A program made the position numbers and the translations under genes. The notes under the pieces were generated by a model, which was given only the letters and a program-made list of their open reading frames with translations, was not told where the DNA came from and did not search any database. Below, piece after piece: positions 38,465 through 56,157 of a stretch of DNA of 56,170 bases (position 1 is its first letter; each line of letters opens with the position of its first letter). This stretch comes from Thermoproteota archaeon (lineage in GTDB: Archaea > Korarchaeota > Korarchaeia > Korarchaeales > Korarchaeaceae): positions 1 through 56,170 of the forward strand of contig JAOZFH010000035.1 of NCBI GenBank assembly GCA_027491415.1, in the 5' to 3' direction.

Positions 38465-39949
38465 ATGGGGGTCAGGGTAGTCGTCGTGGGCGCCGGAGTC
38501 GTGGGCGCCAGCGTGGCCAGGGTGCTCAGCAGGTACGAGGGGCTGGAGGTCCACCTCATCGACACCAACCCCGACGTGGGCTGGGGAGTGAGCAAGGCCA
38601 ACACCGGCATAGTGCACGGCGGCTACGACGACGACCCCGATCGCTTCCCGCTCAGGGCGGAGCTCTGCGCGCTGGGGAACGAAATCTGGCACAGGTGGGT
38701 CGAGGAGCTCGACATCCCACACGCCTGGAGCGGGGCGCTTGTGGTCGCCCTGGAGGGCGATCAGAGAGGGGAGCTGGAGTCGCTCCTGGAGAGGGGCAGG
38801 AGGAACGGCGTGCCGGAGCTGAGGATAGTCGAGCGAGAGGAGGCCCTGGCCCTGGAGCCCAACCTGACCCCAGACGTCGAGGCGGCGCTCTGGGCCCCCA
38901 CAGTGGGACAGATCCACCCCGTGCGGGCAACGGTGGCCATCGTGGAGAACGCCGTGGACAACGGGGTCAGGGTCCACCTGGAGACCGAGATCAGGGGCGT
39001 CAAGGTGAAGGGAGGGGAGGTCAGGGGGTTGGAGACATCCCGCGGATTCCTGGAGGCAGACATCGTGGTCAACGCCGCGGGCCTCAGGGCCGACGAGCTT
39101 GCGGACATGGCCGGAGTTGAGTTCCCGAGGATCAGGCCCAGGAGGGGAGAGTACTGGATATTCGACCGCTCCGCCGGGCCCAAGCCGAGGCGAGTCCTGT
39201 TCCCCACTCCCACGCTGACCAGCAAGGGGGTAGTCGTGACGACGGAGGTGAGCGGGCACCTCATGATAGGCCCGAACGCCGAGGACCTTCCGCCAGACGC
39301 CAAGGACGACGTGGGGAACACAGCGAAGGGGTTGGAGGAGGTCTGGGAGAGGGCCAGGGAGCTCTGGCCCAGGCTACCGTCCAGGAGGCTGGTCATAAGG
39401 ACCTTCGCCGGGCTGAGGCCTGAGCCGGAGGGCGGAGACTTCGTGATTGGGACCACCGAGGTCTGGGGGTTCGTGAACGCTGCGGGAACCAGGTCACCAG
39501 GCCTCACGGCGGCCCCGGCCATCGCCCTGAGGGTGAGGGACGCGCTGGTTGAGCTCGGGATCGAGCTCAGGGAGAAGAGTAGGTGGAAGGCCACAAGGAG
39601 GGACATCGAGTCCACCATCGACCTGAGCTGGCGGGAGAGGGCGTCTAGGGCCCGCGAGGACCCGTTCAGGGGCAGGGTGGTCTGCAGGTGCAACCTCGTC
39701 ACCGAGCGGGAGGTGCTGGAGGCCATCGAGAGGATGCGGGCTGTGGGCGTGAGAACCCCGAGCCTCGACTCGGTGAAGTTCAGGACCGGGGCGACCTCAG
39801 GCACCTGCCAGGGGAGCTTCTGCAGGGTCAGGCTCGTCGAGATCCTAGCCAGGGAGTTCGGCGTTCCCCTGTGGGGTGTTACGCTGAAGGGGAGGGGGAG
39901 CGAGGTGGGCGTCGGTGACGTGAAGGTCCTCCTCAGGGGGCGAGCATAG
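38465..39949 (+). CDS. FAD-dependent glycerol-3-phosphate dehydrogenase-like oxidoreductase with BFD-like [2Fe-2S] domain
   Basis: VVGAGVVG, SKANTGIVHGG, FAGLRP, SPGLTAAPA, VCRC...GTCQGSFC. Confidence 0.85.
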   Translation: MGVRVVVVGAGVVGASVARVLSRYEGLEVHLIDTNPDVGWGVSKANTGIVHGGYDDDPDRFPLRAELCALGNEIWHRWVEELDIPHAWSGALVVALEGDQRGELESLLERGRRNGVPELRIVEREEALALEPNLTPDVEAALWAPTVGQIHPVRATVAIVENAVDNGVRVHLETEIRGVKVKGGEVRGLETSRGFLEADIVVNAAGLRADELADMAGVEFPRIRPRRGEYWIFDRSAGPKPRRVLFPTPTLTSKGVVVTTEVSGHLMIGPNAEDLPPDAKDDVGNTAKGLEEVWERARELWPRLPSRRLVIRTFAGLRPEPEGGDFVIGTTEVWGFVNAAGTRSPGLTAAPAIALRVRDALVELGIELREKSRWKATRRDIESTIDLSWRERASRAREDPFRGRVVCRCNLVTEREVLEAIERMRAVGVRTPSLDSVKFRTGATSGTCQGSFCRVRLVEILAREFGVPLWGVTLKGRGSEVGVGDVKVLLRGRA

Positions 39950-39952
39950 GGG

Positions 39953-41230
39953 GTGAGGGGAGTGGGGACTAGGGTCGAGGGGCGCAGGGACGTCGTGGTC
40001 GTCGGGGGCGGGCCGGCCGGGATGGCCGCCGCTGCCAGGGCCGCCGAGCTGGGTCTCGACGTGTTGATGGTGGACGAGGGAGAGAGGCTCGGCGGCATAC
40101 TGCCGCAGTGCATCCACCCAGGGTTCGGCGTCCACTACCTGAGAGAGGAGCTCACCGGGCCCGAGTTCGCCCAAAGGCTGGCATCGCGCGTGGAGGACGC
40201 TGGCGTTGACGTACTGCTGGAGGCCCACGTGCCGGAGGTCAGGTGGATCTCCCACGCGGAGAAGGGCGTGCGCGTGCTCTCCCCCGGCTTCTCGGGGGAG
40301 GTGAGGGCCGGGGCGGTGATCTACGCCGCCGGGGCCAGAGAGAGGCACCGCTTCGAAATCGGGATCCTTGGGGACAGGGTGGCCGGGGTCTACACGGCCG
40401 GAGAGGCCCAGACGATGATGGACGTGTACGGTATCCTGCCGGGAAGGAGGGTGCTCGTCGTCGGCTCCGGCGACGTGGGGATGATCGTGGCAAGGAGGTT
40501 CGCCCTGGAGGGGGCCGAGGTGGTGGGAGTCGTCGAGATAATGCCCTACCCTGGCGGGCTCACGAGGAATGTGGTCCAGTGCCTAGAGGACTTCGACATA
40601 CCCCTCCTGCTGAGCCACAGGGTCGTCTCGGTCAGGGGGAGAGGGAGGGTGGAGAAAGCTGTCCTGATGAGAGTTGACGAGGGGCTGAGAGACATCCCCG
40701 GGACCGAGACGGAGGTGGAGTGCGACACGGTGGTCGTGTCGGCCGGGCTGGTACCGAGGGTGGAGGTCCTGCGAGAGCTGGGGGCGCTGATCGATCCAGC
40801 GACGGGAGGCCCGGTGGTCAACGACAGGCTGGAGACTACCGTCCCCGGCGTCTTCGCCGCAGGGAACGCCCTCGTGATAAACGATCTGGTGGATCACGCC
40901 GCCGAGCAGGGCGAGCAGGCCGCCGAGGGGGCGGCCGAGTTCCTGAGGAGAGGAGGAATCCCTGCGACCGACTGGGTGAGGCTGAGGCCGGGCGAGGGAG
41001 TCAAGCTGACGGTACCTCAACTCCTCAGCGGGGAGAGGGACGTCTGGATCTACTTGAGGGTCAACAGGCCCGTCAGGAACGCGAGACTAAGCCTCAGGGG
41101 AGCGGGCAGGGAGGTCAGGCTCCCGGTGGTCAGGCCGGCGGAAATGGTCAGGGTCAAGCTCATGGCCGGGGAGGTCAGGCGGGCTAAGGTCGGGGGCCGG
41201 GAGGTCGTGGCGGAGGTGTATAGAGGTTGA
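39953..41230 (+). CDS. NAD(P)/FAD-dependent oxidoreductase, partner of the GlpA-like subunit
   Basis: GGGPAG, LGGILPQCIHPGFG, GSGDVG and GVFAAGN motifs. Confidence 0.88.
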   Translation: MRGVGTRVEGRRDVVVVGGGPAGMAAAARAAELGLDVLMVDEGERLGGILPQCIHPGFGVHYLREELTGPEFAQRLASRVEDAGVDVLLEAHVPEVRWISHAEKGVRVLSPGFSGEVRAGAVIYAAGARERHRFEIGILGDRVAGVYTAGEAQTMMDVYGILPGRRVLVVGSGDVGMIVARRFALEGAEVVGVVEIMPYPGGLTRNVVQCLEDFDIPLLLSHRVVSVRGRGRVEKAVLMRVDEGLRDIPGTETEVECDTVVVSAGLVPRVEVLRELGALIDPATGGPVVNDRLETTVPGVFAAGNALVINDLVDHAAEQGEQAAEGAAEFLRRGGIPATDWVRLRPGEGVKLTVPQLLSGERDVWIYLRVNRPVRNARLSLRGAGREVRLPVVRPAEMVRVKLMAGEVRRAKVGGREVVAEVYRG

Positions 41231-41640
41231 CCGGTCGCGGGAAGGTCAGGAGGCTGACCTGCATCGTCTGTCCCCTGGGCTGCGAGATCGAGGTTCGGCT
41301 GGACCGCGGCCCGGGCGGAGATGTGAGGGTCCTCGAGGTCAGGGGGGCCACCTGCCCGAGGGGGAGGGAGTGGGCCGCTCAGGAGGTGACAGACCCCAGG
41401 AGGGTCGTGATCACCGTGGTGCCGGTGAGGGGCGGTGATCCGCCGACCGTGAGCGTGAAGACGGACAGGCCGATCCCCAAGTCCAGGATCCCGGAGTTCA
41501 TGAGGGCCCTGGCCGGGCTGGAGGTGGAGGCGCCCGTGAGGGTGGGTCAGGTCCTCGCCAAGGACGTGCTCGACCTGGCGAACGTGGTGGCGACCAGGGA
41601 GTCAAGATCGATGGGGAGGAGTTTCGGAGAGAGGCCGTGA
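41227..41640 (+). CDS. DUF1667 family small Fe-S protein
   Basis: TCIVCPLGC...GATCPRG...SVKTDRPIPK. Confidence 0.88.
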   Translation: MTGRGKVRRLTCIVCPLGCEIEVRLDRGPGGDVRVLEVRGATCPRGREWAAQEVTDPRRVVITVVPVRGGDPPTVSVKTDRPIPKSRIPEFMRALAGLEVEAPVRVGQVLAKDVLDLANVVATRESRSMGRSFGERP

Positions 41641-41830
41641 GGTCCCCTGCGGCCTACCACCTACCCTACCCCACGAACGGGGAACCGGGAGTATGGGGAT
41701 CACGATTCCCGATCTGAGGCAGAGGAAGTAGCCCCAGGCCGGATGGGCATCCGTGCTCGAGAGGCCCCCTCCCGCCCTATCCAGACAAGGGTGCAACGCG
41801 TCGGCGGTCTTCGGCGTCTCAGTGAGCACG

Positions 41831-41862
41831 TCAGTACGAACCTGCGAGAAACCGTGTTATCA
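41831..41862 (+). promoter_or_regulatory. Conserved upstream motif plus TATA-like box of precursor gene 1
   Basis: TCAGTACGAA begins 70 nt before ATG 41901; TGTTATCA at +24. Confidence 0.6.
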
Positions 41863-41900
41863 ACGGGCGAGGATCCCCGCGCAGGTCCGGGTGGTTGAGC

Positions 41901-42017
41901 ATGGCCGTACTCTCCGCGTTCTTCGGGCTCGGCGCGGAGGACCTCAGAGCCTCCGTGGCCGTCGCCTCCTGCTCGGCCTGCTGCCTGGCGGGCGGAGGGG
42001 GGACCCTCATCGCCTAG
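41901..42017 (+). CDS. RiPP precursor peptide 1 (38 aa; not in ORF track)
   Basis: MAVLSAFFGLGAEDLRASVAVASCSACCLAGGGGTLIA*; paralog of precursor 2; T-run after the stop. Confidence 0.85.
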   Translation: MAVLSAFFGLGAEDLRASVAVASCSACCLAGGGGTLIA

Positions 42018-42106
42018 GCCCCTCCACCTGCCACCTTTTTCTCGATAAATCCGGCTTCTTTCAGCCAATGGAGTAAGATTCGACCATTTATGGATATGTT
42101 ATCACC

Positions 42107-42138
42107 TCAGTACGAATCTACGGATCATGATTTTTACA
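42107..42138 (+). promoter_or_regulatory. Conserved upstream motif plus TATA-like box of precursor gene 2
   Basis: TCAGTACGAA begins 70 nt before ATG 42177; TTTTTACA at +24. Confidence 0.6.
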
Positions 42139-42176
42139 TCATACTGGCCGGAGCCTCAGCCCAAGGGGTGAGGTGT

Positions 42177-42296
42177 ATGGCGAGCGTCCTGGGCGAGTGG
42201 AGGGATGTGAGCGCCGCCGACATCGGCGACGGCGTGACGGCCTGGCCCTGCGCCTTCTGCTGCCTCCTGGCTGGAGGGGGCACCCTAATCACCTGA
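42177..42296 (+). CDS. RiPP precursor peptide 2 (39 aa)
   Basis: MASVLGEWRDVSAADIGDGVTAWPCAFCCLLAGGGTLIT*; strong SD GAGGTG; directly upstream of the rSAM gene. Confidence 0.88.
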   Translation: MASVLGEWRDVSAADIGDGVTAWPCAFCCLLAGGGTLIT

Positions 42297-42333
42297 GGGT
42301 CCCTCTCTCCTCATTTTTTGGGCGTGAGCGGGG

Positions 42334-43743
42334 GTGTTCGGCGTGTCTAGGCCGGTCCTGAAGCCGTTCGTCGGGATCAGGAGAGAGAATTTCGGGGTGA
42401 TCCTCTACAGAGGAGGCTCCGACCAGATTCAGGCGGTCCACCCAGTCGCCGCGTACGTGCTCACCCTCATGGACGGGAGGAGGACGCTGAGGGAGATCGC
42501 GGAGGCCTTGGCGAGGGAGCTCGGCAGGGGCGTCATGGACGCCATGGAGATAGTCGAGGTGGTTCTGGACAGATACGCGGACTACGTCGATCTCGAGGGC
42601 TCCCACGTCAAGGACCTTCCGAGCCCGGAGGAGCTGCTCGAAGGAGTACCGGCTGAGATCCCCCCGGAGGAGGCCCTCCTCGGCAGGCTCAGCGCTCCGA
42701 CGGGCTTCGGCTACATCGTGACCCACGCCTGCCCCAACAGGTGCAGGTACTGCTACGCCGCCGCCTGGAGGAGGACGAGGCTCGAGGACGACCTGGTCCC
42801 CCTGGACGTGATCCTCAGGACCGTGGACGAGGCGGCGGACGTGGGGGTCAAGACGATCCTCATGACCGGCGGGGAGCCCTTCATGAGGCCCGACCTGGTG
42901 GACATAGTCGAGCGGGGCCTGAAGAGGGACATCTTCGTCTACATACCAACCAAGTCGCTGATAACCGAGGAGAAGGCCAGGAGGCTCAGCGAGGCCGGCC
43001 TGGGCTGGATCCAGGTGAGCATAGACTCGCCAAATCCGGAGACCGAGGACTTCCTCGTGGGGCCCGGGGCCCACGCGAGGCTGACGACCACGGTCAGGAA
43101 CCTGGTCAGGCACGGAATCGACGTGAGGGTCAACTCCGTCGTCACCTCTTACAACGTCAGGGAGGTTCCGAGGCTGATCGAGTGGCTCTACGAGATGGGG
43201 GTCAGCAGGATCTCCCTCTCACCGTATCAGTCCCCACACGACGTGGTCGACGACGACCTCTTCCCCTCGGTGGGGGACTACGCCTGGCTGCTGGACAGGA
43301 TCGAGGAGCTGCCGAGGCACCTGAGGGACGCGCTCGACCCGGCCGGAATACGGGCGATAGAGAACGCCGTGAGGGTCAACAGAGACGAGCTGGAGGACGT
43401 GGAGGCCCTGAGGAAGTGCTCCGCGGGAAGGAGTTCCCTCGTAATACTGCCGGACGGCAGGGTCTCGTTCTGCGAGAGGGTGGCGCTGGACGAGAGGTTC
43501 GTCGTGGGAGACCTGAGGAGGCAGTCTCTCATGGATATATGGAGGTCGGAGAGGCTGGAGAGGCTGGTGTATCCACCGAGGGAGCTTTTCTCCGGCACGG
43601 CGTGCCACGACTGCCCCATCTTCGACGAGTGCACCAGGCTGGGGAAGAGGTGCTACGTGAGGGCCATGGACGCCTACGGGGAGCCCTTCGCCCCGGACCC
43701 GATATGCCCGGCCGCGCCGCGGGTGGAGGGCAGGTTCGTGTGA
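42334..43743 (+). CDS. PqqD/RRE-containing radical SAM/SPASM peptide maturase
   Basis: N-terminal VAAYVLTLMDGRRTLREIAEAL (PqqD-like); CPNRCRYC; TGGEP; SPASM CSAG...PDGRVSFC...CHDC...C...C...DPIC. Confidence 0.92.
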   Translation: MFGVSRPVLKPFVGIRRENFGVILYRGGSDQIQAVHPVAAYVLTLMDGRRTLREIAEALARELGRGVMDAMEIVEVVLDRYADYVDLEGSHVKDLPSPEELLEGVPAEIPPEEALLGRLSAPTGFGYIVTHACPNRCRYCYAAAWRRTRLEDDLVPLDVILRTVDEAADVGVKTILMTGGEPFMRPDLVDIVERGLKRDIFVYIPTKSLITEEKARRLSEAGLGWIQVSIDSPNPETEDFLVGPGAHARLTTTVRNLVRHGIDVRVNSVVTSYNVREVPRLIEWLYEMGVSRISLSPYQSPHDVVDDDLFPSVGDYAWLLDRIEELPRHLRDALDPAGIRAIENAVRVNRDELEDVEALRKCSAGRSSLVILPDGRVSFCERVALDERFVVGDLRRQSLMDIWRSERLERLVYPPRELFSGTACHDCPIFDECTRLGKRCYVRAMDAYGEPFAPDPICPAAPRVEGRFV

Positions 43744-44741
43744 CGGGGGTGGGCGAGGTGGCGTCGGGCGTCGCGCGCGACGCGGTGATCGCCGAGAACC
43801 TGGTCAAGTACTACGGAGACTTCAAGGCGCTCGACGGCGTCTCCCTGAGGGTCGAGAGGGGAGAGGTCGTGGCCCTGCTGGGCCCCAACGGGGCTGGGAA
43901 GACCACCACCATCGGCATACTCTGCGGCCTCATGTCCGCGGACGCCGGCAGGGCCTTCGTCCTAGGGGTGCCGTCGACCGACAAGGATGGGGTGAGCAGG
44001 CTGATCTCCTACGCCCCGCAGGAGACGGCCCTTGACTACCTGATGAGCGTGGAGGACAACCTGAAGTTCATCGGCTGGCTGAGGGGGCTGAGAGGCGGGC
44101 GGCTCAGGGAGCGAATCGAGTGGGCGCTGAGGGAGTTCGGCCTCCTCGAGAAGAGGAGAATCCCGGTCATAGCGCTCTCAGGTGGGCTGATGAGGAGGGT
44201 CCAGCTGGCCGGGGCCCTCATGCTGGAGCGCGAGGTGCTGGTGCTGGACGAGCCCACCCTCGGGCTTGACCCCATGGGCAAGATGACCGTCTGGCAGATG
44301 GTCAGGGAGAGGGCCAGGAGGGGGGCGGCCGTGCTGGTCGCCACCAACGACATGCACGAGGCCGAGGTGCTCGCGGACAGGATAGCCTTCCTCAACAGGG
44401 GCAGGATCGTCGCCTTCGACACGGCCGACAGGCTCAAGGCCCTGTCCGGTAGCTCCTACCTGAGGCTGCGGCTGGAGCCCGGCTGGGAAGACCTGGTCAG
44501 TGCGCCCCGGGGGGCGAGGGTCCTCGGGGACGGGTGGATCGAGGTCGAGTACCGCGAGCCGGGAGAGGTGGCCGAGATCGTGGCGTCGCTCTCCGGCGCG
44601 AGGATCCTCGACATGAGGCTGAGGGGGCCCACCCTGGACGACGTGTTCAGGAAGCTGGCGACCGAGTCGGAGACGGTTCCAGAGGGCGACGGGGCGGGCG
44701 TGAGAGTGGTGGCCGAGGTCGGGCCACCGGCCGGGGGGTGA
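43740..44741 (+). CDS. ABC exporter ATP-binding subunit
   Basis: GPNGAGKTT, LSGG, LDEPT and PTLDDVF motifs; GTG start overlaps the rSAM stop. Confidence 0.92.
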   Translation: MTGVGEVASGVARDAVIAENLVKYYGDFKALDGVSLRVERGEVVALLGPNGAGKTTTIGILCGLMSADAGRAFVLGVPSTDKDGVSRLISYAPQETALDYLMSVEDNLKFIGWLRGLRGGRLRERIEWALREFGLLEKRRIPVIALSGGLMRRVQLAGALMLEREVLVLDEPTLGLDPMGKMTVWQMVRERARRGAAVLVATNDMHEAEVLADRIAFLNRGRIVAFDTADRLKALSGSSYLRLRLEPGWEDLVSAPRGARVLGDGWIEVEYREPGEVAEIVASLSGARILDMRLRGPTLDDVFRKLATESETVPEGDGAGVRVVAEVGPPAGG

Positions 44742-44745
44742 TGCC

Positions 44746-45492
44746 GTGCTCGCGCCGCTGATCTGGAGGGAGTTCAAGATCCACTCCAGCAAGGCCCTGG
44801 CCCTGAACCACCTGCTCGGCCCCACCTCCTACCTGGTGTTCCTGGGGCTCAGCATATCCTTCAACTTCGGGACCGTGCCCTACCAAGGCATGGCGGTGAG
44901 CTACCTGCACTTCATAATCCCCGGGCTCATAGCGATCCAGACGTACCAGCTCTTCGCCACGACCTTCTCCCTCACCAGGCTGGACATCTCCACCAAGATG
45001 ATCACGCTGATCATGACCTCCACGAGCTTCGTGAACTACATGGTCGCGAAGATAGCCTTCGGCATGCTAGTCTCGCTCGCGACGTCCGCGTACCTCCTGG
45101 GGCTGGGCTGGGTCATCGCCGGCCCCACGGAGGTCACGCCGGCTGGACTCCTGACGATGGTCGCGGGGATAGCGCTGGGGGACTTGCTCTTCTTCTCACT
45201 CGGGCTGCTCATGGGCCTCAGGATAAGGAGGGAGGACGTGAGAGACGCCATCTTCGCCCTGGCGGGAACGCCGGCGCTCTTCTCCAGTACGGCCTTCTAC
45301 CCCATGGACAGGGTGCCGGCGCCCCTCCGGCTGGTGGCCAGGCTGAACCCCATATCCCACATAGCAGACATCGTGAGGGCTGGCTACCTGAACGCGAGCC
45401 CCGACCCGCTGACCTGCCTCCTGCTAGCGGCCTACGTGGCCGCCGCCGTGGGCGTTACGTACAGGGCCGTGAGGCGGTTCGTCGTCAGGTGA
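44746..45492 (+). CDS. ABC-2 type permease
   Basis: YLHFIIPG, FSSTAFYP and LNPISH motifs; 6 TMs. Confidence 0.9.
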   Translation: MLAPLIWREFKIHSSKALALNHLLGPTSYLVFLGLSISFNFGTVPYQGMAVSYLHFIIPGLIAIQTYQLFATTFSLTRLDISTKMITLIMTSTSFVNYMVAKIAFGMLVSLATSAYLLGLGWVIAGPTEVTPAGLLTMVAGIALGDLLFFSLGLLMGLRIRREDVRDAIFALAGTPALFSSTAFYPMDRVPAPLRLVARLNPISHIADIVRAGYLNASPDPLTCLLLAAYVAAAVGVTYRAVRRFVVR

Positions 45493-45521
45493 GCGCCCGC
45501 GGCGCAACACTTTTATTTGAT

Positions 45522-45539
45522 CAATCAATCGATTGATTG
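45522..45539. promoter_or_regulatory. Perfect 18-bp palindrome, probable operator
   Basis: CAATCAATCGATTGATTG immediately after the TTTTATT box at 45511. Confidence 0.65.
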
Positions 45540-46579
45540 TGCAGGGTGGGGACGACCTCAGGGACGCCGGGAGGATAGTGAGGCACCTGCTGTTCAACAG
45601 CCTCGATGTGGAGTCCCTGAGCATCCGGGGGATGGAGAGGGCGCTGGGCATACCCTTCTCCAGGCTCAGGCGACTGCTCAGGTGGCTCCAGAGTGAGGGA
45701 GTAGTCGTGGGATATCAGGTGGGCACCTCGATGGCCTTCAGGGTACTAGACCTCGAGAGGGCCGTTCACCTCGGCCTGGTGAGCCTGTCCACGGAGGACC
45801 TGGAGAGGGCCGTGTACGGCTCCATGGCGCTGCCGGCCTCGGTCAGGGGCATGGTGCGCGACGACCTCACCCTCAAGTTCCTGCCAGCGTCCAGCGACCT
45901 GCCGGGGCCCTACCTCGCGGCGATAGGGGACCTGAGGAGGAGGTGGGACCTCCTCTACCAGGCGGCCAGGAGGGCCTTCACGGGCGGGGACGGGGAGAGG
46001 GTGGGGCAGACGGGTCGAAGGGGGGCCGACGGCATGGAGGCCAGCCTGAGGCTCCTGGGGAGGGATTTCGTGTCCAAGGCGGGCCTCATCCCCCTCCTGT
46101 ACCTCGTGGCCGTCAGGCAGCTCAAGGTCCCTGTGGAGGTTGAGCTCGACGAGGACGACATAGAGGGCATGCTGCACAGGCTCAGGGTCGAGGCCGGCGT
46201 CGGGGAGGACGAGGTGAGGCTCCTGAGGTACTTTCCCTCCCTGGACCCCATAGCCCTGTTCGCGAGGGACGTGGTCATGGAGCTCGGGGTTCCCGAGGAG
46301 GTGAGCGAGGAGGAGCTCAGGCGGGCTGTCTCCAGGGTGGCGGAGAAGTACCTCCGCCTCCTGCTGAAGTTCTCCCGCGGGAGGCACCCGTCCAGGGAGG
46401 CCCGGCTCGTGGAGGCGCTTACCCTCAGGCACGGGGCCCTGTTCGGCATACTGACCGGGGCCCCGGCGGATCTCGTGAGTGAGTGCCTCTCCAGGGCGAG
46501 CGAGCTGGAGGAGGGGTCGAACTCAGGGGAGGGGAGGTTGAGGTCGTTGGGGAGGTGTGGGGATGCTCGAGCTGGCTGA
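45533..46579 (+). CDS. Hypothetical protein with N-terminal winged HTH (start uncertain)
   Basis: LSIRGMERALGIPFSRLRRLLRWLQSEGVV. Confidence 0.65.
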   Translation: MIVQGGDDLRDAGRIVRHLLFNSLDVESLSIRGMERALGIPFSRLRRLLRWLQSEGVVVGYQVGTSMAFRVLDLERAVHLGLVSLSTEDLERAVYGSMALPASVRGMVRDDLTLKFLPASSDLPGPYLAAIGDLRRRWDLLYQAARRAFTGGDGERVGQTGRRGADGMEASLRLLGRDFVSKAGLIPLLYLVAVRQLKVPVEVELDEDDIEGMLHRLRVEAGVGEDEVRLLRYFPSLDPIALFARDVVMELGVPEEVSEEELRRAVSRVAEKYLRLLLKFSRGRHPSREARLVEALTLRHGALFGILTGAPADLVSECLSRASELEEGSNSGEGRLRSLGRCGDARAG

Positions 46580-51430: not shown

Positions 51431-52381
51431 TCACCCGTAAGGGGGTTCCTTAAAGCACTTCTTCCCCCAGCGCTCACAGCACCTCCCGATGGTTGAGTAG
51501 GCGCACCAGACCAGTATACATGCGATGCAAGCCGACGTGCTTATTGCACATGGAATAGCGCAGTACGCCGCCTGTGCACACTCTCTCAGGACGCAGGTCC
51601 AGCTTATGTCGCAGCAGTACCAGCTGCAGTAATAATTGAGGGGGCATTCGGAGTCATATCGGCAGTAGATGCCGCAGCCGCCTAGGATGCTGACTCCTTC
51701 GCCCTCGGAAGAGAAGGCCTTGAGAACAAGCTTGTCGCCACGTATCTCCCAGAGAAAGGCGTCTTCCTTAACATCGCCGTCGTCGAACTCGAACCTCCTG
51801 GCCAAGACCACATGTCTCTCGTCTACGGGGATTCCTACGGCGGTGAGCTTCGCGGGCTCTCCATTAACCATGACTATGTGCTCGCCAGCCGACACTCCCT
51901 CTGCAGGCACTTTAACTCCTAGCCCGGTCTTGCCAAGGAGCGACCTTACGAATTCCCTCTTAACTATCTTCTCCGCGAAATCCCTCGCCAGATCCTCGTC
52001 CAACCTCCTAGAATCCAACACCTCGAGTCTCTTGACCTCCGCCACCCGGGGAACAGCCATCGCCTTGACGACCCTCCCGAGTCCCAGCTGTGCGAGGGTC
52101 GCCACGATGAGGAACTTGAATCCCATTGATAGGAATTCTCTGCGCTTCAGGCCGCCCCCCTCAAACTCCACGGCCGATCGTTCACACTCACAACACTCTC
52201 TCGTGGCCTTGTAGGCGAGGAGCACGAGTGCTGGCAGGAACGCTGCCTCAAGCAGGATCAAAGCTCTCTCTAGGAGGGGACTAATTTGGCTCAAGTGTAG
52301 ACTTATTACGATTAATCCATTTAACAGGGAGGCGGCTCCAAGCAGTCCCAGCAGGGATGCGGGATGTCTTGCACTTGGCAT
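51431..52381 (-). CDS. Halocin C8-like protein: TMs, twin-arginine motif and 16-Cys C-terminal domain
   Basis: KRREFL Tat-like motif; SILGG followed by CGIYC...CC...CIACILVWC...CCERWGKKC. Confidence 0.65.
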   Translation of the reverse strand: MPSARHPASLLGLLGAASLLNGLIVISLHLSQISPLLERALILLEAAFLPALVLLAYKATRECCECERSAVEFEGGGLKRREFLSMGFKFLIVATLAQLGLGRVVKAMAVPRVAEVKRLEVLDSRRLDEDLARDFAEKIVKREFVRSLLGKTGLGVKVPAEGVSAGEHIVMVNGEPAKLTAVGIPVDERHVVLARRFEFDDGDVKEDAFLWEIRGDKLVLKAFSSEGEGVSILGGCGIYCRYDSECPLNYYCSWYCCDISWTCVLRECAQAAYCAIPCAISTSACIACILVWCAYSTIGRCCERWGKKCFKEPPYG

Positions 52382-53852: not shown

Positions 53853-54098
53853 TTGTCTGAGGTCAAGGTCAGGATCACCAAGAAGTTCACCCTGTACATC
53901 CCCAGGTCGATAGCCGGGGCCGCGGGCCTCAGGGAGGGGGACTACGTGAGGATGAGGGTCGAGGGCTCCAAGGTAATCCTGGAGCGGGTGCCCGATCCCT
54001 TCGAGCTGGCCCTGAAGGGGCCTAAGTTCGCCAGGATCACGTTTGAGGAATTCGAGAGGGAGTCCGAGGAGATGCAGGATGCGCTCTTCGGCGATTAG
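53853..54098 (+). CDS. AbrB/MazE/SpoVT antitoxin
   Basis: KKFTLYIPRSI...GLREGDYVRMRVEGSKVIL. Confidence 0.9.
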   Translation: MSEVKVRITKKFTLYIPRSIAGAAGLREGDYVRMRVEGSKVILERVPDPFELALKGPKFARITFEEFERESEEMQDALFGD

Positions 54099-54540
54099 GA
54101 TACTCCTGGACTCGACCTACCTGCTGCCCATCTTGGGAGTCGACGTGGAGGGCGTCGACGAGGCCCTGAGGGTGCTGAAAGGGCTCAGATCCGGCAGGAG
54201 GGCGGAGTTCTATTACACGGAGTTCAACCTGATCGAGGTGCTGGGAAAGATAGGCAGGACCGACTACGACCGGGGCAGGGTGCTCGCGGGCCTCAACTCC
54301 ATCGAGGAGGAGTTCAGGCTCACCCGCCCAACGGTCGAGGGGTACCTGAGGGCCCTGGCCCTCAGGAGGGTCGGCTTCAGAGATCTCATAGATCTGCTCC
54401 TCTACGCCACATCCCTGACGAGGGACCTCCTGTTCCTGACGAGGGACGACCACCTGATCGAGTTCCTGGAGGGGCGGGGCGAGGACACCCGGAGGGTGCT
54501 CCACGAGAGGTCCCTGATAGAGGAGTACGGGGGAGGGTAG
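54079..54540 (+). CDS. VapC PIN-domain toxin
   Basis: ILLDSTYLLP, NLIE, DLIDLLLYATS and FLTRD motifs. Confidence 0.88.
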   Translation: MRSSAIRILLDSTYLLPILGVDVEGVDEALRVLKGLRSGRRAEFYYTEFNLIEVLGKIGRTDYDRGRVLAGLNSIEEEFRLTRPTVEGYLRALALRRVGFRDLIDLLLYATSLTRDLLFLTRDDHLIEFLEGRGEDTRRVLHERSLIEEYGGG

Positions 54541-54616
54541 GCTCTGGCTGGATTGGAGTGGAGTGCCGTTGAGGGGCATCAAGCCCGTCTCCGTCACGTG
54601 CTGATCCCCGGATATC

Positions 54617-56157
54617 CTCTCAGCCCTGCCGCTTCTTGCGGCAAATCTGCTTCGCCCCCTGTGGTGGAAGTCAATGTCTGTGCCATCAACCTCTTTCAAC
54701 CCTGCCGCAAGAAGCGGCTGATCTGCTTCCCCGGGCTGGAGCCAGCTCGCGCGCTCGAGGTCGCTTTCTTTCAACCCTGCCGCAAGAAGCGGCTGATCTG
54801 CTTCAACGAGGATCTCGCTAGGCTGAAGGCCCTGATAGTCTTTCAACCCTGCCGCAAGAAGCGGCTGATCTGCTTCTGGCGGGTCAGGGAGAGGAGGCAG
54901 GATCTGGAGCTGTACTTTCAACCCTGCCGCAAGAAGCGGCTGATCTGCTTCACGACGTGGCCGAGAAGGTTTCAGGAGCCCCGCCCCCATCCTTTCAACC
55001 CTGCCGCAAGAAGCGGCCAATCTGCTTCGATACGACATAGGTGGAATATTCACGTCAATTCGAGCTTTCAACCCTGCCGCAAGAAGCGGCCAATCTGCTT
55101 CTCGGGCACGCCCAAGCCCGAGGAGGTGGAGTACTTCGACTTTCAACCCTGCCGCAAGAAGCGGCCAATCTGCTTCTGGCCGAGGACCTGGTCGTGGTCG
55201 AGAGGGCGGTTCTCTTTCAACCCTGCCGCAAGAAGCGGCCAATCTGCTTCTTAAGAAGGCCACCGTGACAGAGACGAGAACAACAACTCTTTCAACCCTG
55301 CCGCAAGAAGCGGCCAATCTGCTTCCGGGTTCTGCCCCGAGGAGAACCACCTCCTGACCCAGTACTTTCAACCCTGCCGCAAGAAGCGGCCAATCTGCTT
55401 CTTCGACGCCCCCGACTACCAGGGCAACCTGAGGGCCTGCTTTCAACCCTGCCGCAAGAAGCGGCCAATCTGCTTCGGAGCTTGAGGCCGAGCTTGAGGG
55501 CGCGGTAAACCGGATAACTTTCAACCCTGCCGCAAGAAGCGGCCAATCTGCTTCCTCTTGGCCGCCAGGTCGTCCCTGACCGCCATCCAGTCTTTCAACC
55601 CTGCCGCAAGAAGCGGCCAATCTGCTTCCAAGCATCCGCTTTGAGGAGTTCGAGTTCTTGACTATGACTTTCAACCCTGCCGCAAGAAGCGGCCAATCTG
55701 CTTCTCAAATTTTGGCGATTCAGGCCGATTTCTTCATAGTCACTTTCAACCCTGCCGCAAGAAGCGGCCAATCTGCTTCGTCAGCACTCTGGCGGCCAAG
55801 AAGGACCTGCCCCTCTCCTTTCAACCCTGCCGCAAGAAGCGGCCAATCTGCTTCCAATGTTGTCTAAGTTAGCTATTATTTCATTCCAAACATTCTTTCA
55901 ACCCTGCCGCAAGAAGCGGCCAATCTGCTTCATGGGAACGCCGAGGCTGTGCAGCGCCGGGGTCGGTCGGCTTTCAACCCTGCCGCAAGAAGCGGCCAAT
56001 CTGCTTCCTCGGCCACCCCGGCCCTGGCGACTCATGCGTTACCACCCTTTCAACCCTGCCGCAAGAAGCGGCCAATCTGCTTCAGGGCTTACATCGGCTG
56101 GCTGGAGACCTACAAGCTAACTTTCAACCCTGCCGCAAGAAGCGGCCAATCTGCTTC
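54617..56157 (-). CRISPR. CRISPR array: 21 repeats (1 degenerate terminal), 20 spacers of 35-41 nt; may continue past the window edge
   Basis: 37-nt repeat CTTTCAACCCTGCCGCAAGAAGCGGCCAATCTGCTTC on +; the reverse complement ends GTTGAAAG. Variant and degenerate repeats at the left mark the trailer end. Confidence 0.98.

What the first reader, a model, noticed from the sequence alone, without database searches (positions are those of the whole stretch)
41901..42296. Hidden paralogous precursor pair with a conserved core
P1 (41901-42017, missing from the ORF track) is MA-VLSAFFGLGAEDLRASVAVASCSACCLAGGGGTLIA. P2 (42177-42296) is MASVLGEWRDVSAADIGDGVTAWPCAFCCLLAGGGTLIT. They align with one gap. 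They share MA.VL and an A-x-D-hydrophobic leader motif (candidate RRE recognition site), plus the core CxxCCLxxGGGTLI. The leaders diverge while the three Cys and the GGGTLI tail are kept, which suggests selection on the peptide. P2's Trp and Phe are absent from the P1 core, which argues for Cys-thioether rather than aromatic cyclophane chemistry. The pair could be a two-component antimicrobial or diversified signals.
Basis: partly seen in the sequence, partly recalled or inferred. Interest (0 to 1): 0.9.

Follow-up and report, generated by a model that had tools for sequence, protein, structure and literature searches.

The report
Twin archaeal cysteine-rich peptide precursor genes
Two tiny neighbouring genes in a hot-environment archaeon encode related cysteine-rich peptides that a neighbouring radical-SAM enzyme most likely cross-links and a transporter most likely exports; this is a new family within a known kind of natural-product pathway.

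Summary
P1 (41901-42017) and P2 (42177-42296) translate as stated. They align far better than shuffled sequences (z = 8.3). Their motif occurs nowhere else in the 1.78-Mb genome.

They are real genes. Against a 95%-identity relative the two cores carry 7 synonymous and 0 nonsynonymous changes, while the leaders diverge. Both ORFs have a GGTGA-type ribosome-binding motif, a T-run behind the stop, and a 16-nt element exactly 70 nt upstream of the ATG that occurs only at these two sites in the genome.

Downstream lie a radical SAM/SPASM enzyme with an N-terminal PqqD-like (RRE) domain, an ABC-2 exporter, and a conserved 348-aa protein with weak HTH leads.

A maturase only 34% identical, from a 34%-GC organism, sits in the same precursor-rSAM-ABC-ABC order. 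Its precursor ends in CAFCCWLAAGT, written largely in different codons.

Best reading: a new precursor family of the sacti-/ranthipeptide kind, with three Cys thioether-linked to the small-residue tail. The closest analogue is StsA/StsB (three Cys-Gly sactionines). Chemistry, cleavage, export and function are inferred. No expression data exist. No curated family model is met.

Verdict: new member of a known kind, moderately interesting.

The parts
41831..41846 (+). 16-nt conserved element TCAGTACGAACCTGCG, starting 70 nt upstream of the P1 ATG. Candidate promoter-proximal or operator site.
   Evidence: Pattern search: 2 matches in the window against 0.04 expected. Only these 2 in the whole genome, and 0 for the control pattern. 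Kept upstream of P1 and P2 in G004, L046 and G001, read.
41901..42017 (+). P1 precursor gene, 38 aa. Leader of 23 aa, then the core CSACCLAGGGGTLIA.
   Evidence: Translation. Orthologues in G004, L046 and G001. Core 3 synonymous/0 nonsynonymous against L046. GGTG-type motif before the ATG.
42036..42040 (+). T5 run 19 nt after the P1 stop. Candidate archaeal oligo-T terminator.
   Evidence: Read. Function inferred from general knowledge of archaeal termination.
42018..42176 (+). P1-P2 spacer, non-coding and AT-richer (48% GC against 65% for the window). Contains a TATA-like TTTATGGATAT at about 42087-42097.
   Evidence: GC values. 10 differences in 159 nt against G004, compared with 5 in 237 nt of the two ORFs (my count). 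Frame not kept in L046. The TATA reading is by eye.
42107..42122 (+). Second copy of the 16-nt element, TCAGTACGAATCTACG, also starting 70 nt upstream of its ATG (P2).
42165..42175 (+). Shine-Dalgarno-like GGGGTGAGGTG directly before the P2 ATG.
   Evidence: Read. Kept in G004, L046 (GGAGGTGAGG) and G001.
42177..42296 (+). P2 precursor gene, 39 aa. Leader of 24 aa, then the core CAFCCLLAGGGTLIT.
   Evidence: Translation. Identical peptide in G004 with 3 synonymous changes. Core 4 synonymous/0 nonsynonymous against L046. The same CAFCC core in L047 and P0159.
42294..42319 (+). Hairpin plus T6 overlapping the P2 stop. Terminator- or attenuator-like, lying before the maturase gene.
   Evidence: Terminator scan: 3 overlapping sites here against 0.4 expected in shuffles. 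L047 has an inverted repeat at the same position, by eye.
42334..43743 (+). Radical SAM/SPASM peptide maturase, 469 aa, with an N-terminal PqqD-like RRE domain.
   Evidence: Pfam: Radical_SAM 2.5e-27, SPASM 6.3e-13, PqqD 22.8 bits (cut-off 23.4). CxxxCxxC at C133/C137/C140 and seven conserved C-terminal Cys. AlphaFold model pLDDT 89.5 with a three-strand, three-helix N-terminal domain. Foldseek top hits SuiB, PqqE, SkfB and CteB.
43740..44741 (+). ABC transporter ATPase, DrrA-like. The exact start is uncertain.
   Evidence: Pfam ABC_tran 5.9e-28. TIGR01188 drrA 227.7 bits, below the 312 cut-off. 38% identical (E 1e-70) to the gene at the same position in L047.
44746..45492 (+). ABC-2 type permease.
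   Evidence: Pfam ABC2_membrane 2.6e-09. 34% identical (E 6e-44) to the L047 counterpart.
45533..46579 (+). 348-aa protein of no known family. Cluster-associated, with weak helix-turn-helix leads. Possible regulator.
   Evidence: No Pfam or NCBIfam hit. 28% identical over the full length (E 3e-26) to the gene next to the precursor and maturase in the second genus (L050). Single full-length copy in the genome, plus one 25-aa partial match. Atlas hits at 0.83 to HTH clusters are leads only.

Best explanation
P1 and P2 are two translated, tandemly duplicated precursor genes of a ribosomally made, post-translationally modified peptide (RiPP).

Proposed mechanism. Each gene carries its own copy of an upstream 16-nt element and a ribosome-binding motif, and a T-rich stop signal follows each. 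This should give abundant short transcripts, with some read-through into the enzyme genes. The N-terminal 23-24 residues act as a leader. Its G/D-hydrophobic-x3-D-hydrophobic motif, 15 residues before the first Cys, is bound by the PqqD-like RRE domain fused to the radical SAM/SPASM enzyme (42334-43743). The enzyme then uses 5'-deoxyadenosyl radical chemistry to link the three Cys sulfurs of C-x-x-C-C to carbon atoms of the conserved small-residue tail ([G/A]-G-[G/T], then T). The most likely product is a set of nested alpha-thioether (sactionine) rings forming a compact hairpin, as in StsA. The leader is removed by a protease not encoded in this window, and the ABC-2 transporter exports the product or protects the producer. 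One enzyme serves both precursors, giving two related products.

Shown here: the ORFs, purifying selection on the cores, the gene order, the enzyme's domains, and the conservation of peptide plus cassette at 34% enzyme identity.

Inferred: leader-RRE binding, thioether chemistry and ring pattern, cleavage, export, and biological role.

The confidence given (0.6) is for the whole chain. My odds for the separate steps are about 0.9 that these are real precursor genes, 0.85 that they are substrates of the adjacent enzyme, 0.6 that the links are thioethers, and 0.3 for the specific Cys-to-Gly hairpin.
For: Coding: the cores show 7 synonymous and 0 nonsynonymous changes against L046. With S about 25.5 and N about 64.5 sites, chance is about 1.5e-4 by my arithmetic. 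P2 against G004 shows 3 synonymous and 0 nonsynonymous changes. The spacer differs 3 times more than the ORFs. The frame upstream of the P2 ATG is not kept.

In contigs of another run (X6, record 9) all 6 differences across P1 fall in the leader and none in the core (table cut).

Peptide-level conservation: G001 has a diverged P1 leader with core CATCCLVAGGGTLIA. L047 and P0159 carry CAFCCWLAAGT beside a 34%-identical maturase in 34%-GC DNA. 5 of the 9 shared core residues use other codons (my count).

The cassette order precursor-rSAM-ABC ATPase-ABC-2 permease is kept in L047.

Enzyme: rSAM, full SPASM and RRE-like N-terminus. The nearest solved folds are RiPP maturases.

Family habit: many of the loci I read (32 and 36 of the 80 loci) show candidate leader-core ORFs with Cys-containing C-terminal cores just upstream of the enzyme, often in 2-3 copies. 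At 4 or more Cys, 16 of 67 loci have one on the enzyme's strand against 3 of 67 on the opposite strand.

Analogy: StsB makes three Cys-Gly sactionines on a CxCxCx4GxGxG core (PMC10288494, section 7 and passages). MftC, the characterised enzyme most similar to StsB over its full length, is also our enzyme's best curated-model hit.
Against: No expression or peptide data: no RNA run was listed.

The chemistry is untested. Structure and sequence similarity cannot separate thioether from C-C or C-O cross-linkers, and the best structural hit, SuiB, makes a Lys-Trp C-C bond.

[quoted passage not shown] The mapping was not checked against those sequences.

L047 has only one Gly in the tail, so the acceptors cannot all be Gly.

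No protease is encoded in this cluster.

The PqqD hit is just under Pfam's cut-off (22.8 against 23.4 bits).

The G004 maturase is read in two frames, so the system may be decaying there, or the assembly may be wrong.

The P1 leader has more nonsynonymous than synonymous changes (9 against 1).

The simple Cys-count test is not discriminating at 2 or more Cys (45 against 35 of 67) and weak at 3 or more (22 against 10).
Confidence: 0.6

Rival explanations
1. The peptides are real substrates of the maturase, but the chemistry is not a Cys thioether. It could be a C-C or C-O cross-link, an epimerisation, or another change on Leu, Ile, Thr or Ala. The Cys would then serve as metal ligands or disulfides in the product.
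For: The best structural match is SuiB, a C-C cross-linker, and PqqE ranks above the thioether enzymes SkfB and CteB. The best curated-model scores are for MftC and PqqE types. The hydrophobic tail TLI is conserved in the archaeal copies.
Against: The three Cys are the only invariant core side chains across P1, P2, G001 and L047. TLI is missing in L047. The P1 core has no aromatic, Lys, Glu or Tyr residue of the kind used by SuiB, PqqE and MftC-type reactions (the substrate preferences are recalled). The candidate precursors I read beside relatives are also Cys-containing.
Confidence: 0.2
2. The pair is an obligate two-component system. Both modified peptides are needed together for activity, as in thuricin CD.
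For: Two diverged copies are kept side by side in G000, G004 and L046, and G001 has the start of a second copy. Both cores are under purifying selection.
Against: L047 and the second genus have a single Cys-bearing precursor candidate by my reading. One maturase serves both here, whereas thuricin CD uses two rSAM enzymes (PMC12093266, search listing only). Many relatives carry 2-3 copies, as in ordinary multi-precursor RiPP loci.
Confidence: 0.15
3. The product is an intracellular redox cofactor of the mycofactocin or PQQ type, not a secreted peptide.
For: The top curated-model similarities are to MftC (103.1 bits) and PqqE (94.8 bits). The C-terminus is conserved.
Against: Both scores are far below the cut-offs of 265 and 381. 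The last residue varies (A or T), and L047 lacks the TLI tail. There are two diverged precursors. An ABC-2 exporter is syntenic across a 34%-identity distance. The scan of seven genes from 38465 to 46579 gave no other hit I would link to mycofactocin or PQQ synthesis (that judgement rests on recall).
Confidence: 0.04
4. The two ORFs are not translated. The similarity reflects a duplicated regulatory or RNA element.
For: No expression data. A duplicated 16-nt non-coding element does exist upstream of each.
Against: Only synonymous changes occur in the cores. The peptide motif is kept in 34%-GC DNA with other codons. Ribosome-binding motifs are present. No Rfam match overlaps the ORFs; the only hit, at E 0.28, lies at 41657-41729 on the other strand.
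Confidence: 0.03

Closest known systems
StsA/StsB sactipeptide of Streptomyces sparsogenes, and the related BlaA/BlaB (PMC10288494; section 7 and passages read)
   Same: A short precursor with three Cys followed by a Gly-rich stretch. The rSAM/SPASM enzyme's closest characterised relative by full-length similarity is MftC, and an RRE is required. StsB forms three nested Cys-Gly alpha-thioethers, which is the ring pattern I propose here.
   Different: The motif is CxCxCx4GxGxG, against CxxCC-x3-GGG here. StsC is a separate RRE protein, while here the RRE is fused. Our enzyme scores 93.6 bits against a 625-bit cut-off for the StsB model, so it is not a member. The host is a bacterium, not an archaeon. 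L047's tail has one Gly only.
SCIFF/CteB-type ranthipeptides such as thermocellin, and the sactipeptide enzymes SkfB and AlbA
   Same: RRE plus rSAM plus SPASM or twitch architecture acting on Cys-rich cores. CteB and SkfB are among the top structural hits.
   Different: No sequence hit to CteB or SkfB at E <= 1e-5 in the PDB search (5 hits, none of them these). None of the best 25 NCBIfam hits reaches its cut-off, and the only sactipeptide model among them is StsB. The Cys pattern differs.
SuiB/streptide
   Same: Best structural match over the whole length, RRE included (TM 0.64-0.68).
   Different: SuiB links Lys to Trp. The P1 core has neither residue. Sequence identity is 17%.
CrpC/CrpA of Methanococcus voltae (PMC13692751; abstract read)
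   Same: An archaeal SPASM radical SAM enzyme with an RRE that installs thioethers on a neighbouring Cys-rich substrate.
   Different: The substrate there is a large Cys-rich protein and the links are ranthionines. Here the substrates are 38-39-aa peptides. No sequence comparison was made.
Thuricin CD, a two-peptide sactibiotic
   Same: Two related Cys-bearing precursors encoded side by side.
   Different: It uses two dedicated rSAM enzymes (title and abstract start in the listing). Here there is one. It comes from Bacillus. Synergy is not tested here.
Mycofactocin (MftA/MftC) and PQQ (PqqA/PqqE)
   Same: Best curated-HMM similarity, and the PqqD-type peptide-binding domain.
   Different: Scores are far below the cut-offs. 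There is no Val-Tyr or Glu/Tyr substrate motif (motifs recalled). An exporter is present.

Membership tests
rSAM/SPASM RiPP maturase with RRE (sacti-/ranthipeptide kind) | CxxxCxxC radical SAM cluster motif | tested here: met
   C133, C137 and C140 are invariant in 30- and 8-sequence alignments. Pfam Radical_SAM 2.5e-27.
rSAM/SPASM RiPP maturase with RRE (sacti-/ranthipeptide kind) | C-terminal SPASM domain with Cys ligands for two auxiliary clusters | tested here: met
   Pfam SPASM 6.3e-13. C362, C380, C424, C427, C433 and C440 are invariant, and C458 is invariant or nearly so. Cluster binding itself is not testable here.
rSAM/SPASM RiPP maturase with RRE (sacti-/ranthipeptide kind) | PqqD-like RRE that binds the leader | tested here: inconclusive
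   PqqD scores 22.8 bits against a 23.4 cut-off. The model shows three strands plus three helices at residues 13-80. SuiB aligns over the full length. Binding was not shown.
rSAM/SPASM RiPP maturase with RRE (sacti-/ranthipeptide kind) | Short Cys-bearing precursor encoded next to the enzyme | tested here: met
Sactipeptide / ranthipeptide (product class) | Cys sulfur linked to an alpha carbon (sacti) or a beta/gamma carbon (ranthi) of another residue | not testable with these tools
   Needs mass spectrometry or NMR of the modified peptide.
StsB family (NCBIfam NF045574) | Score at or above the curated cut-off (625 bits) | tested here: not met
   93.6 bits.
Mycofactocin maturase MftC (TIGR03962) | Score at or above the curated cut-off (265 bits) | tested here: not met
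   103.1 bits.
PqqE (TIGR02109) | Score at or above the curated cut-off (381.35 bits) | tested here: not met
   94.8 bits.
Any curated precursor family (Pfam, NCBIfam) | HMM hit for P1 or P2 | tested here: not met
   0 families for P1 and P2 in Pfam at E <= 0.01 and in NCBIfam at E <= 0.1. 0 for the L047 and L050 peptides at E <= 1.
Two-component sactibiotic (thuricin CD type) | Two peptides that act only together, each with its own maturase | tested here: not met
   There is one maturase gene between the precursors and the transporter. Synergy is not testable here.

The most novel reading that the evidence does not exclude
A cassette of precursor, rSAM enzyme and ABC-2 exporter has moved between an unclassified low-GC bacterium-labelled lineage and Korarchaeia-like archaea. 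In the archaeon it makes two 15-residue, triply thioether-stapled hairpin peptides. These would be the first small sactipeptide-type natural products from this archaeal group. They would have a previously undescribed C-x-x-C-C to small-residue ring pattern, and their own operator (the 16-nt element) read by the conserved 348-aa protein.
Probability: 0.25. Interest if true: 0.65.

Novelty: new member of a known kind. Interest (0 to 1): 0.5.

Why it matters
Genome mining predicts radical-SAM RiPP clusters to be common in archaea. The preprint 10.1101/2024.10.07.616454 (passages) lists ranthipeptides and sactipeptides among the abundant predicted archaeal classes, and notes how few archaeal RiPPs have been identified. 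The one archaeal thioether-forming SPASM enzyme I saw described acts on a large protein (PMC13692751, abstract).

This locus offers a compact, well-delimited test case. It has two 38-39-aa substrates, one enzyme with a fused recognition domain, natural sequence variants that mark leader and core, and a distant relative with the same core for comparison.

It also shows that short precursor genes are easily missed. The peptide family has only 4 entries in a 5.8-billion-cluster protein collection.

If the ring pattern is as proposed, it would extend the Cys-to-Gly sactionine hairpin of StsA to a much tighter C-x-x-C-C spacing, in a peptide from a hot environment. That is of interest for stable peptide scaffolds.

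Tried and rejected
Expression: the look-up of sequencing runs listed 6 runs from 2 studies. No RNA holder was listed, so nothing can be said about expression.

Read laying laid DNA contigs only. Its table of differences was cut (27 rows not shown), so P2 could not be evaluated from it.

Leader-RRE binding: complex prediction with the enzyme's residues 1-115 and the P2 alignment gave 'no answer' (scores 0.18 and 0.16, mark 0.32). This is no evidence either way.

Automated precursor count: at 2 or more Cys in the last 30 residues, the enzyme's strand and the opposite strand both gave 53 of 67 loci. With ATG-only starts, a 30-aa minimum and a stricter leader rule, the counts were 45 against 35 (2 or more Cys), 22 against 10 (3 or more) and 16 against 3 (4 or more). 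Only the strictest criterion separates them. 13 of the 80 loci were dropped before the count, for less than 300 nt upstream or for an identical upstream sequence.

Neighbourhood comparison within the genus: the flanking DUF1667 gene was found only in G004, 1 of 4 genomes. No empty-site comparison was therefore possible.

Rfam: one weak chance-level hit (mir-1180, E 0.28), outside the ORFs.

The sigma-70 promoter scan found 0 sites. It does not cover archaeal promoters.

The DNA self-alignment of the two units failed in my script, and the follow-up call had a mistyped reference. I did not repeat it and used the 16-nt pattern search instead.

Literature: searches found no paper pairing Korarchae* with sactipeptide, ranthipeptide or SPASM among the 10 rows listed. 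This is a limited search of an open-access library. Supplements are closed. The supplemental datasets of PMC10288494 (3,421 predicted sacti-/ranthipeptide clusters) and of 10.1101/2024.10.07.616454 might already list this cluster.

Rejected readings: cyclophane chemistry, because the P1 core has no aromatic residue; and a longer P2 starting at 42090, because the frame is not conserved.
Full report
WHAT IS THERE

The two ORFs exist exactly as described. Window 41901-42017 gives the 38-aa P1, and 42177-42296 gives the 39-aa P2. A global alignment needs one gap, in the leader, and scores 70. 2000 shuffles gave a mean of -4.8 and a maximum of 39, so z = 8.3. From the first Cys to the stop both cores are 15 residues long and align without a gap.

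In the six-frame translation of the whole 1.78-Mb assembly (3,566,354 residues) the core motif and the GGGT-hydrophobic-hydrophobic-stop tail occur only at these two places. Plain C..CC occurs 57 times.

THE NEIGHBOURHOOD

A 469-aa radical SAM enzyme follows directly at 42334-43743. It has a SPASM domain and an N-terminal PqqD-like stretch. After it come a DrrA-like ABC ATPase, an ABC-2 permease, and a 348-aa protein without any family hit. Upstream lie an FAD-dependent dehydrogenase gene, a pyridine-nucleotide oxidoreductase gene and a DUF1667 gene, none of which looks connected.

No NCBIfam model reaches its cut-off for the enzyme. The best are MftC (103 bits against 265), NirJ2, TIGR04053, PqqE (95 against 381) and the sactipeptide maturase StsB (94 against 625).

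An AlphaFold model built on 30 sequences has mean pLDDT 89.5. It shows three strands and three helices at residues 13-80, the usual shape of a RiPP recognition element, followed by the barrel and the SPASM part. Foldseek ranks SuiB first, then PqqE, SkfB and CteB, all of them peptide-modifying enzymes. By sequence alone the PDB search at E <= 1e-5 gives only BlsE, PqqE and MoaA (5 hits).

ARE THE ORFS GENES?

Four lines of evidence say yes.

(a) Substitution pattern. Against G004 (enzyme 96% identical), P1 has 1 synonymous and 1 nonsynonymous change, and P2 has 3 synonymous and none nonsynonymous. The 159-nt spacer has 10 differences including two indels (my count). Against metagenome locus L046 (enzyme 95%), the two cores together have 7 synonymous and 0 nonsynonymous changes, and the leaders have 3 synonymous and 13 nonsynonymous. 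With about 25.5 synonymous and 64.5 nonsynonymous sites in the cores, seven changes all falling on synonymous sites has a chance of about 1.5e-4 by my arithmetic. Against G001 (enzyme 87%), the P1 core has 6 synonymous and 4 nonsynonymous changes, and the Cys and the GGGTLIA tail are kept.

(b) Translation signals. A GGTGA-type motif sits a few bases before each ATG in G000, G004, L046 and G001. The frame upstream of the P2 ATG is broken in L046 and stopped in G001, so 42177 is the start.

(c) Transcript signals. P1 is followed by T5 (42036-42040). P2 is followed by a hairpin plus T6, scored by the terminator scan at 3 overlapping sites against 0.4 expected. A 16-nt element, TCAGTACGAAYCTRCG, starts exactly 70 nt before each ATG. 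It occurs only at these two places in the window (0.04 expected) and in the genome, and it is kept in the relatives.

(d) Deep conservation of the peptide. Locus L047 is from 34%-GC DNA. Its enzyme (identical to representative P0010) is 34% identical to ours. Directly upstream it encodes a peptide ending in CAFCCWLAAGT. A near-identical peptide, P0159, is on record as a hypothetical protein of an unclassified 'bacterium', with two leader changes and the same core. By my count, 5 of the 9 residues shared with the P2 core are written with other codons.

L047 also keeps the gene order. Its ABC ATPase is 38% identical (E 1e-70) and its ABC-2 permease 34% identical (E 6e-44). An M16 peptidase, a candidate leader protease, follows, and an IS4-type transposase lies just upstream.

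HOW WIDE IS THE FAMILY?

The enzyme clade is large in metagenomes: 365 representatives at E <= 1e-30. It is rare in archaeal genomes: 6 of 43 genomes of the phylum at E <= 1e-60, and 6 of 401 relatives at E <= 1e-70, with only four candidates scored per genome.

The six are G000, G004 and G001 of the window's genus, and G005, G009 and G012 of a second genus (enzyme 34% identical). G003 holds an 85%-identical fragment.

In G005 and G009 of the second genus, and in two metagenome loci with the same 33-35% enzyme identity (L048, L050), a different single precursor lies upstream. It ends in ...GLKLNDGGGVDVTDVCPVACIIIKY.... The G012 contig starts too close to the enzyme gene for the upstream region to be read. 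These loci have no exporter, but they carry a homologue of the 348-aa protein (28% identity over the full length, E 3e-26).

Titles of the two closest public records read 'Thermoproteota archaeon', and one isolate label begins with 'Kor'. I therefore take the organism to be Korarchaeia-like, which is an inference.

The peptide family itself is tiny. A profile search of 5.8 billion clusters gave 4 proteins out of 12 candidates: the P2 type, two P1 types and the L047 type.

More distant enzyme relatives (24-33% identity) have other candidate precursors upstream, many with Cys-containing cores and many with GG-type leaders. They often come in two or three copies. An automated count supports this only at strict thresholds (see Tried and rejected).

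LEADER

By eye, a G-L or G-I pair (D-V in P2) begins exactly 15 residues before the first Cys in P1, in G001's P1, in P2, in the L047 peptide and in the second genus's peptide. An acidic or Ser residue and a hydrophobic residue follow at +5 and +6.

A fixed distance between a leader motif and the first modified residue is what one expects if the fused recognition domain holds the leader while the core reaches the active site. That is inference. The complex prediction gave no verdict.

LIKELY CHEMISTRY

The only side chains invariant across all core types are the three Cys. The P1 core has no aromatic residue, Lys, Glu or Tyr. Many of the candidate precursors I read beside relatives are Cys-containing. 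A full SPASM domain is present.

The closest analogue I found in print is StsA/StsB. There a CxCxCx4GxGxG core receives three nested Cys-Gly sactionines, from an enzyme whose nearest characterised relative by full-length similarity is MftC (PMC10288494, section 7 and passages).

By analogy I propose C5-G9, C4-G10 and C1-G11. In L047 the acceptors would be Ala/Gly/Thr.

Reading the paper's six landmark positions on our sequence gives Y141, T178, P205 or T206, S229, S363 and A364. This equals StsB (Y, T, I, S, K, L) at three positions and CteB (F, F, T, S, H, Q) at two. The mapping is mine and unverified, and the result does not decide between sacti- and ranthi-type.

WHAT REMAINS UNKNOWN

- Whether the genes are expressed. 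No RNA run was listed.
- Where the leader is cut, and by what.
- Whether the transporter exports the product or protects the cell.
- What the peptides do.
- Whether the two act together.

The G004 enzyme is read in two frames, split at about residue 375. This may be an assembly error or decay.

VERDICT

The system belongs to a known kind: RRE-guided radical SAM/SPASM modification of Cys-bearing peptides. Its precursor family and its enzyme clade have no curated model, and I found no description in the searches I made. I rate it a new member of a known kind, with interest 0.5.

Noticed in passing
window 51431-52381 (-): A 316-aa ORF whose last ~90 residues are extremely Cys-rich (many CxxC- and CC-type spacings), about 5 kb downstream of the cluster's last gene. 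Cys-rich proteins beside radical SAM enzymes were recently shown to be thioether substrates in a methanogen (PMC13692751, abstract). I did not test any link to this cluster.
   Followed up: no
window ~54040-55680: The translations of long ORFs on both strands show a short peptide repeated at regular intervals. This suggests a CRISPR-like direct-repeat array. I did not run the repeat finders.
   Followed up: no
window 41831-41846 and 42107-42122: A 16-nt element starts exactly 70 nt upstream of each precursor ATG. It occurs only at these two sites in the 1.78-Mb genome and is kept in relatives. It is a candidate operator or initiator region, and the 348-aa protein with weak HTH leads is an obvious candidate reader.
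   Followed up: partly
window 45533-46579; L050 975-2072 (-): A 348-aa protein of no known family travels with the precursor and maturase in two genera (28% identity, E 3e-26). Only weak helix-turn-helix leads came from the protein atlas (0.83).
   Followed up: partly
G004:C1:61802-63207 (L002): The 96%-identical maturase of the sister genome is read in two frames, residues 1-375 and then 375-469. This is a frameshift or an assembly error, while both precursor genes there are intact.
   Followed up: no
L047 1034-2101 and 5586-6335: The distant cassette with the same CAFCC core has an IS4/DDE transposase directly upstream and an M16 (insulinase-type) peptidase directly after the permease. These hint at mobility and at a leader protease that the window's cluster lacks.
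   Followed up: partly
window 38465-41640: Three co-oriented genes lie just upstream: a DAO/BFD-domain FAD dehydrogenase, a pyridine-nucleotide-disulfide oxidoreductase and a DUF1667 protein. They resemble an anaerobic glycerol-3-phosphate dehydrogenase-type set (that name is recalled). DUF1667 was found in only 1 of 4 genus relatives.
   Followed up: no
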